64,000 bases of DNA from Octopus vulgaris (taxonomy: Eukaryota), in contig OX597836.1 of the NCBI GenBank assembly GCA_951406725.2, positions 25,296,001 to 25,360,000 of the forward strand, written 5' to 3'. The position numbers and the translations under genes are program-made. Below, in pieces: positions 35,761 through 36,035 of the stretch. The notes beneath the pieces are model-generated. The model worked only from the letters and a program-made list of their open reading frames with translations. It was not told the origin of the DNA and ran no database searches. How positions within the stretch are numbered: the stretch's first letter is position 1; each line of letters starts with the position of its first letter.

Positions 35761-36035
35761 TTACGGAGATGTACTCGCATAGCAAGTGATTTGATCTGAG
35801 ATCGTGTGCTGGAACGAAAACAATTGCAGCGTGGAAGGTGTTTGTAAGCCATTTAAGAAACACAGAAAAGCCGTTCGATTCACTTCAACATTTAAGTTTA
35901 AGTTGTCAAAATATTTTCGTCGCTTTAAGACCGCAACGAAAATATTTTGACAAATTAAACTTAAATGTTGAAGTGAATCGAACGGCTTTTGTGTGTTTCT
36001 TAAATGGCTTACAAACACCTTCCACACTGCAATAT
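35761..36035. repeat. Fold-back palindrome whose centre is hammerhead stem II (same family as 11.7-12.0 kb)
   Basis: ...ttgtcaaaatattttcgtcgc-tttaagacc-gcaacgaaaatattttgacaa..., with arms of about 100 bp. Confidence 0.85.

What the first reader, a model, noticed from the sequence alone, without database searches (positions are those of the whole stretch)
35761..36035. Palindrome turns around exactly at hammerhead stem II: footprint of self-primed fold-back
Seen: the complete motif at 11762-11812 reads (on +) ...aaatattttc-gtcgc-tttgagacc-gcgac-ctgttcac.... The same family at 35.9 kb follows this sequence through stem II (gtcgc-tttaagacc-gcaac). It then continues as the reverse complement of what preceded it, and the 5' half of the ribozyme is lost. 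Inference: nascent cDNA stopped after copying stem II, snapped back on that hairpin and copied itself. This gives a concrete mechanism by which ribozyme hairpins seed genomic palindromes.
Basis: partly seen in the sequence, partly recalled or inferred. Interest (0 to 1): 0.7.

Follow-up and report, generated by a model that had tools for sequence, protein, structure and literature searches.

The report
Two-ended Penelope-type insertion, not fold-back
This mirror-image stretch is one of at least 1,855 made by a small repeat that carries a predicted self-cutting RNA motif; it turns around at the motif's stem II, but that spot is rare among the copies, which were likely built from two DNA copies started at the two cut ends of the target and joined head to head, a layout already known from Penelope-type jumping genes.

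Summary
The palindrome is real (arms 35823-35923 / 35933-36033, 96%) and centred on stem II of a predicted type I hammerhead with a swapped G3-C8 core. It belongs to a ~206-nt non-coding family with at least 5,637 intact motifs and 1,855 head-to-head pairs in this genome. Stem II is a minor turn-around point: 11 loci, against 14 at stem I, 20 at a non-ribozyme 5-nt match and 329 at one junction type near the RNA 5' end. It is about tenfold above a uniform-ends null, as are other short inverted matches. Self-primed fold-back fails as the general mechanism. 133 of 145 pairs have one arm starting at position ~1 and one at ~60. The short arm reaches further in 53 of 131. The stem II loop sits on the short arm in 6 of 11. 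Some pairs mix subfamilies. Whole pairs carry ~12-bp target duplications. Best reading: two cDNAs primed from both nicks at two start sites, joined by inverted microhomology. This is the published Penelope 'inverted pLTR plus tail' layout, and this scan reached the same reading before on other DNA. No autonomous partner or raw-read confirmation was obtained.

The parts
35761..35822 (-). One-sided 'tail' of the long arm (family positions 1-62); RNA-sense 3' end, inferred outer reverse-transcription start
   Evidence: No mirror image; longer arm starts at position 1-9 in 138 of 145 sampled pairs
35823..35937 (-). Rest of the long arm, up to and including hammerhead stem II and its loop; RNA sense is the minus strand
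   Evidence: 89.9% to the 11.7-kb copy over 99 nt; family positions 63-176 (frame)
35919..35937 (.). Junction: stem II GTCGC / loop TTTAAGACC / GCAAC; the last 5 nt are shared by both arms (microhomology). The A at 35935 breaks one pair and is likely later CpG decay
   Evidence: the other 10 loci read GCGAC
35933..36033 (+). Short inverted arm (family positions 163 back to 63), ending at the family's second fixed start site near CAATTG
   Evidence: 96.0% to the long arm; shorter arm starts at 52-72 in 140 of 145 pairs
35559..35760 (.). (TA)n target on the left; (TA)n also follows the short arm at 36032-36041, so a target duplication cannot be resolved here
   Evidence: only a simple-repeat match for L011
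11762..11812 (-). Complete predicted type I minimal hammerhead of the same family: stem I 11812-11806 with 11768-11762, core GUGAACA (G3, C8) 11805-11799, extra G 11798, stem II 11797-11793 with 11783-11779, GAAA, palindromic stem III, predicted cut after U17 (11769)
   Evidence: core and stems at about 90-100% majority letter in 104 arms picked by anchors outside the motif (one indel-prone stem I column excepted), while loop II varies
11699..12017 (.). Second head-to-head pair of the same family, with a (TA)n between the two 5' ends and an internal deletion in the right copy

Best explanation
The palindrome is a long arm with a 62-nt one-sided tail joined to a short inverted arm at hammerhead stem II, and it was likely made in one insertion by a Penelope-like enzyme that primed DNA synthesis from both nicked ends of the target and joined the two copies head to head. 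Inferred steps: the borrowed enzyme nicks both strands of AT-rich DNA about 12 bp apart; one 3' end starts reverse transcription at family position ~1, the other at ~60; both cDNAs run toward the RNA 5' end on uncleaved RNA; being of the same sense, their growing ends can pair only where the element holds a short inverted match; usually both run to the 5' end and join at the TGCTGCA region, and now and then they join earlier, here through GTCGC/GCGAC of stem II; fill-in leaves the pair between two ~12-bp duplications. Stem II acts as a 5-nt microhomology, not as a ribozyme and not as a necessary stop. Shown: geometry, counts, duplications, mixed-subfamily pairs. Inferred: the enzyme, the order of events, and that the join is between two cDNAs.
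For: Long/short rule: 133 of 145 sampled pairs. Target duplications around the whole pair: 63 of 155 with a non-simple match of 7+ nt, 41 of them 11-13 nt, against 18 of 776 shuffled flank pairs; three stem II loci have one (L002, L008, L009) and all three carry the loop on the short arm. Short arm holds sequence that the long arm lacks in 53 of 131 pairs (long arm further in 35, equal 43); this is 21 of 29 in the youngest third and 15 of 30 in the oldest, the opposite of what later flipping of the spacer from a fold-back start would give. Arms from two subfamilies at L039 and L092. Strict inverted overlaps of 5+ nt at 11 of 65 internal flush junctions against 0.6% of random joins. Single copies also start at ~60 (L018, L019). 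In vitro, the Anolis Penelope protein nicks and extends both strands, starts at two adjacent internal sites that delimit the tail, and uses uncleaved RNA (PMC11167929).
Against: Arms of one pair are nearly always of the same subfamily (discordant 4 of 114 at position 116 against 54 expected at random; 14 of 162 at position 84) and sometimes share private variants, as self-copying also predicts; one RNA used twice, sibling RNAs, or later conversion between arms must be invoked. At this locus both arms are of one subfamily, the loop follows the long arm and no target duplication can be resolved. 53 against 35 is not significant against 50:50 (p=0.07). No autonomous element with this end was found; only the loci in hand and the window were screened for long frames. 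No empty site was examined.
Confidence: 0.72

Rival explanations
1. Self-primed fold-back (first reader; also PMC3846280): one cDNA started at the tail, copied stem II, snapped back and copied itself, and the hairpin was then cut or joined to the target at position ~60.
For: Geometry at this locus fits (loop on the long arm; 4 of 11 stem II loci). High subfamily concordance of arms. Stem II junction about 10-15 times above an independent-ends null (4 anchor-positive loci, one with a symmetrised loop, against 0.27 expected).
Against: Cannot make pairs whose short arm reaches further (53 of 131; 6 of 11 at stem II; 10 of 14 at stem I) without later flipping, and the age trend goes against flipping. 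Cannot make mixed-subfamily pairs (L092 has this very geometry). Needs a separate reason for the fixed end at ~60, where solo copies also begin.
Confidence: 0.15
2. DNA-level event after insertion: two neighbouring head-to-head copies, or one full-length pair, lost its middle by deletion or template switching at the stem II inverted repeat (cruciform resolution).
For: Long near-perfect palindromes are unstable (established knowledge); full-length pairs are abundant (975 in the longest bin); a deletion between the two stem II copies would give this junction with either loop orientation.
Against: It does not change how the pair arose (fixed outer ends, duplications). Most internal junctions are asymmetric, one arm full and one cut anywhere, with small templated inserts, as expected of insertion-time joining; asymmetric pairs are common among the youngest copies.
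Confidence: 0.1
3. Assembly or amplification chimera (fold-back read).
For: No public contig piece listed spans the locus, so it is not independently confirmed.
Against: Arms differ at four sites, of the kinds expected of ageing; fixed family-specific ends, and duplications at sister loci, cannot come from library fold-back; flanks are not mirrored.
Confidence: 0.02

Closest known systems
Insertion layout of endonuclease-bearing Penelope-like elements: inverted 5'-truncated pLTR, one-sided tail, target duplication (Pen2a_Av and others, PMC3846280, passages and Discussion read; PMC8557442, passages and Fig. 2 legend read)
   Same: Head-to-head arms, tail on one arm only, 8-10-bp (there) or ~12-bp (here) duplication around the whole unit, palindromes at the inverted junction, AT-rich and (TA)n targets
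   Different: No reading frame; ~206 nt only; tail ~60 nt rather than 30-40; thousands of copies allow junctions to be counted, and they argue against the self-priming explanation given in PMC3846280
Poseidon element of Anolis carolinensis in vitro (PMC11167929; parts 1-2 of 4 of the text read)
   Same: Two internal reverse-transcription starts that delimit the tail, both strands nicked and extended, uncleaved hammerhead RNA as template; one start lies 111-118 nt from stem II there and the inner start ~116 nt from stem II here (may be chance)
   Different: That paper does not, in the parts read, model inverted pairs or their junctions; the element here is non-autonomous and its enzyme is unidentified
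Minimal type I hammerheads of Penelope pLTRs (PMC4209133; part 1 of 4 and passages read)
   Same: [quoted passage not shown]
   Different: Core reads G3-C8; that paper reports C3-G8 and U3-A8 and has no 'G3-C8' string. The C3G/G8C double mutant partly restores cleavage in PMC11167929
Animal non-LTR retrozymes (bioRxiv 10.64898/2026.07.22.740005, part 1 of 5 read; PMC7229834, search listing only)
   Same: Short non-coding element with a type I hammerhead, likely dependent on Penelope enzymes
   Different: Not in tandem arrays: 1 of 206 loci has two same-strand cores within 500 nt (loci were mostly picked as inverted pairs)
L1 twin priming (recalled, not read here)
   Same: Two target 3' ends prime two cDNAs that are joined by microhomology inside one target duplication
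   Different: L1 gives an inverted, mostly non-overlapping 5' part with a variable inner start; here both cDNAs cover the same stretch and the second start is fixed

Membership tests
EN+ Penelope-like element (or its non-autonomous derivative) | RT plus GIY-YIG reading frame, in cis or in a partner sharing the end | tested here: inconclusive
   No coding extension seen at either end in loci in hand; element has stops or only short frames. No genome-wide search for a partner was run
EN+ Penelope-like element (or its non-autonomous derivative) | Inverted truncated copy head to head with the main copy | tested here: met
   1,855 pairs with both 13-nt anchors exact
EN+ Penelope-like element (or its non-autonomous derivative) | Tail at one end only | tested here: met
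   133 of 145 pairs; ~60 nt
EN+ Penelope-like element (or its non-autonomous derivative) | Target-site duplication around the whole unit, AT-rich target | tested here: met
   63 of 155, mode 12 bp, control 18 of 776; 76 more lie in simple repeats. Not resolvable at this locus
Type I minimal hammerhead | Three stems in type I order around the core | tested here: met
   Stems I and II fold as predicted; stem III is 2 bp with palindromic AAUAUU by inspection. No compensatory changes within the family; Rfam no hit
Type I minimal hammerhead | Core C3UGANG8A9 ... GAAA ... UH | tested here: inconclusive
   Reads G3UGAAC8A9-G ... GAAA ... UU: the 3-8 pair is kept but swapped; G in 100 and C in 102 of 104 arms
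Type I minimal hammerhead | Self-cleavage | not testable with these tools
   Needs an assay; genomic copies include the sequence on both sides of the predicted cut, so templates were uncleaved
Non-LTR retrozyme | Head-to-tail tandem monomers, circular RNA | tested here: not met
   1 of 206 loci with a same-strand repeat of the core within 500 nt (biased sample); circles not tested
MITE (palindrome moving as a unit) | One fixed internal structure copied between loci | tested here: not met
   Junctions differ from locus to locus; the 11 stem II loci belong to several subfamilies with both loop orientations

The most novel reading that the evidence does not exclude
Penelope-type elements insert by a two-headed reaction: both nicks of a ~12-bp staggered cut prime cDNA, each at its own fixed start site, sometimes on two different RNA molecules, and the cDNAs are joined at any inverted microhomology, ribozyme stems included. 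This would replace the published self-priming explanation of inverted pLTRs, and the family would also be a natural, thousands-copy hammerhead with a G3-C8 core.
Probability: 0.6. Interest if true: 0.55.

Novelty: new member of a known kind. Interest (0 to 1): 0.3.

Why it matters
The locus itself is ordinary. The family is useful because how Penelope elements make inverted ends is still open (PMC8557442 and PMC11167929 say so), and some two thousand dated pairs with fixed starts, measurable junctions and mixed-subfamily arms give a testable model and a 206-nt minimal substrate. Such palindromes would also be ready-made double-stranded RNA if transcribed; PMC5625713 (passages) links abundant dsRNA to very high A-to-I editing in octopus, and earlier scan notes call this genome octopus (unchecked).

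Tried and rejected
Rfam: whole window gave only low-complexity miRNA-type matches among the 150 of 286 rows shown; 11700-11830 gave no hammerhead. Public runs: 4 runs laid, all contigs, no listed piece spans the locus; loose ends show the usual continuation into the core: no support either way. Sequence look-up in earlier findings: nothing. Long-frame screen of loci and window: nothing attached to the element's ends; frames were not sent to Pfam. The 28 near-full pairs from the DNA search (27 long/short) were left out of the counts because the query itself was a long/short pair. Spacer flipping as the cause of short-arm-further pairs: age trend goes the other way. MITE and tandem retrozyme readings rejected (see membership). 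The joined frame was replaced by one natural copy (L048) from then on. Overlap counts from local alignments (22 of 65) were inflated by mismatches and replaced by strict counts (11 of 65). Literature: 'Penelope + twin priming + inverted' gave 2 papers, neither on this by listing; other searches searches showed no paper with this two-cDNA model or a natural G3-C8 Penelope hammerhead; subscription papers and all supplements were not seen.

Full report
Observation. The sequence is as described. From 35761 the window follows a repeat family through GTCGC, the loop TTTAAGACC and GCAAC, then runs back as the reverse complement. The arms 35823-35923 and 35933-36033 are 96.0% identical over 101 nt with the centre at 35928; the first 62 nt have no mirror image. 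The copy at 11.7 kb carries the missing part. On the minus strand 11812-11762 reads as a type I minimal hammerhead: stem I, GUGAACA, an extra G, a 5-bp stem II, GAAA, palindromic AAUAUU, U17. The extra nucleotide, the G10.1-C11.1 pair and the palindromic stem III are the traits listed for Penelope hammerheads in PMC4209133. The core has the 3-8 pair swapped to G3-C8; in PMC11167929 the same double change partly restores cleavage. Rfam does not detect it and its folding energy is not unusual (z -1.16), so activity is a prediction. In 104 arms picked by anchors outside the motif, core and stems are nearly fixed while loop II and the bases next to stem I vary by subfamily.

The family. The genome (2.8 Gb, 227 contigs) has 5,637 exact matches to the intact stem II-core pattern and 11 to the turn-around pattern. 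Natural full copies are 202-208 nt and end near GTGCTGCATC. A 13-nt anchor facing its own reverse complement within 300 nt is found 456 + 424 + 975 = 1,855 times; these are lower bounds. I analysed 145 of the 150 pairs listed (first on contigs C1 and C2; four of the longest bin not fetched, one listed twice), against one natural copy, L048.

Where the pairs turn. At least one arm reaches the RNA 5' end (position 193+) in 81 of 131 clean pairs, both in 32; only 1 of 131 joins at stem II. Exact-pattern counts for single junctions: stem II 11, stem I 14, a 5-nt AAAAT match that is not a ribozyme helix 20, the 10-nt stem III palindrome 4, two other AT-rich 5-nt matches 2 and 1 (the first exists in one subfamily only), and the TGCTGCA region near the 5' end 329. 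Patterns differ somewhat in stringency. Against a null of independent arm ends, stem II is enriched about 10-15-fold (4 anchor-positive loci against 0.27), but stem I, AAAAT and stem III junctions turned up 3, 2 and 2 times in the 131-pair sample, which stands for tens of loci each against about one expected. Strict inverted overlaps of 5+ nt occur at 11 of 65 internal flush junctions against 0.6% of random joins. So short inverted matches in general favour joining; stem II is one of them, and a minor one.

How the pairs are built. In 133 of 145 pairs one arm starts at position 1-12 and the other at 50-72, mostly 57-63 near CAATTG. This holds for 9 of the 11 stem II loci, this one included. 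The whole pair is flanked by a duplication in 63 of 155 loci, 41 of them 11-13 nt, against 18 of 776 mismatched flank pairs; 76 others lie in simple repeats, as this locus does, and a few of the 63 are TA-rich. The pair is therefore one insertion. The short arm reaches more than 10 nt further into the element than the long arm in 53 of 131 pairs, the long arm further in 35. A cDNA that starts at the tail and copies itself cannot put into the short arm what it never copied; one that starts at position 60 cannot add the tail. Among the stem II loci the loop follows the long arm in 4, the short arm in 6, and is symmetrised in 1; at stem I the short arm reaches further in 10 of 14. Later inversion of the spacer could blur this, but the short-arm-further class is 21 of 29 in the youngest third and 15 of 30 in the oldest. 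L039 and L092 have arms from two subfamilies, and L092 has the same geometry as this locus. Against my reading: arms are of one subfamily in over 90% of pairs, which self-copying predicts as well; I take it to mean that one RNA or sibling RNAs usually serve both primers, which is not shown.

Mechanism. Most likely (0.72) a Penelope-like RT-endonuclease, borrowed from an unidentified autonomous element, nicks both strands about 12 bp apart, primes one cDNA at each of two fixed start sites, and the two same-sense cDNAs anneal at an inverted match and are filled in. At this locus the match was GTCGC/GCGAC. The four arm differences, about 2% per arm, are private: other runs show the short arm's letters at 35865 and 35902 as the family majority, and two changes are at CpG. 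Fold-back remains possible for this one locus (0.15), a later central deletion less so (0.10), an artefact unlikely (0.02).

Comparison with what is known. Inverted 5'-truncated copy, one-sided tail and a duplication around the unit are the described footprint of Penelope-like elements (PMC3846280; PMC8557442). PMC11167929 shows both strands nicked and extended, two internal start sites bounding the tail, and uncleaved RNA as template, which fits the two-cDNA model, though the parts I read do not model inverted pairs. Membership rests on insertion anatomy and the motif; no partner frame was identified. I wrote down the twin-priming reading before opening earlier findings; the scan then showed many notes with the same reading on other families in this and other genomes. 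They are unchecked and not independent support, but they show the pattern is common.

Verdict. Observation confirmed; interpretation partly supported; new member of a known kind; interest 0.3. The value lies in the family-wide evidence on how Penelope-type inversions form and in the G3-C8 core, not in a ribozyme hairpin that seeds palindromes.

Noticed in passing
window 36036-36835, and 43631-43956: A second family forms an 800-nt head-to-head pair directly beside the finding, with a (TA)n centre and apparently its own long/short ends; it holds a hammerhead-like stretch (UGAACAG, GCGU..ACGC, GAA) near 36575-36605 whose core resembles this family's but does not show a 3-8 pair
   Followed up: partly
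window 19-263, 9191-9541, 25529-25963, 52998-53345, 4204-4421, 4487-4773: Further palindromes of other repeat families, several next to (TA)n; the layout is common in this window
   Followed up: no
window 11925-12017: Inverted copy with an internal deletion that begins right after the 5' strand of stem II and resumes about 120 nt downstream, in the tail
   Followed up: no
L003 (G000:C5:53505108): Stem II turn-around whose loop is itself a perfect palindrome (TAAATATTTA) with identical arms: the best single candidate for a true hairpin-type event
   Followed up: partly
L014, L027, L043, L089, L164 and others: Junctions near the RNA 5' end often carry short templated inserts made of repeated pieces of the element's end, as after repeated slip-and-copy steps
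   Followed up: no
L048 arm, family positions 47-131: RNA sense is predicted to fold into a long hairpin whose outer 12-bp stem borders the inner start site; a candidate protein-binding or initiation signal
   Followed up: no
window 52487 onward, + strand: A CUGACGA..GAAA match with a possible stem II, just upstream of the 52998-53345 palindrome; may be chance
   Followed up: no
window ~23800-24506, - strand: 238-codon stop-free frame that by eye resembles the C-terminal part of a LINE-type reverse transcriptase (recalled, not searched)
   Followed up: no
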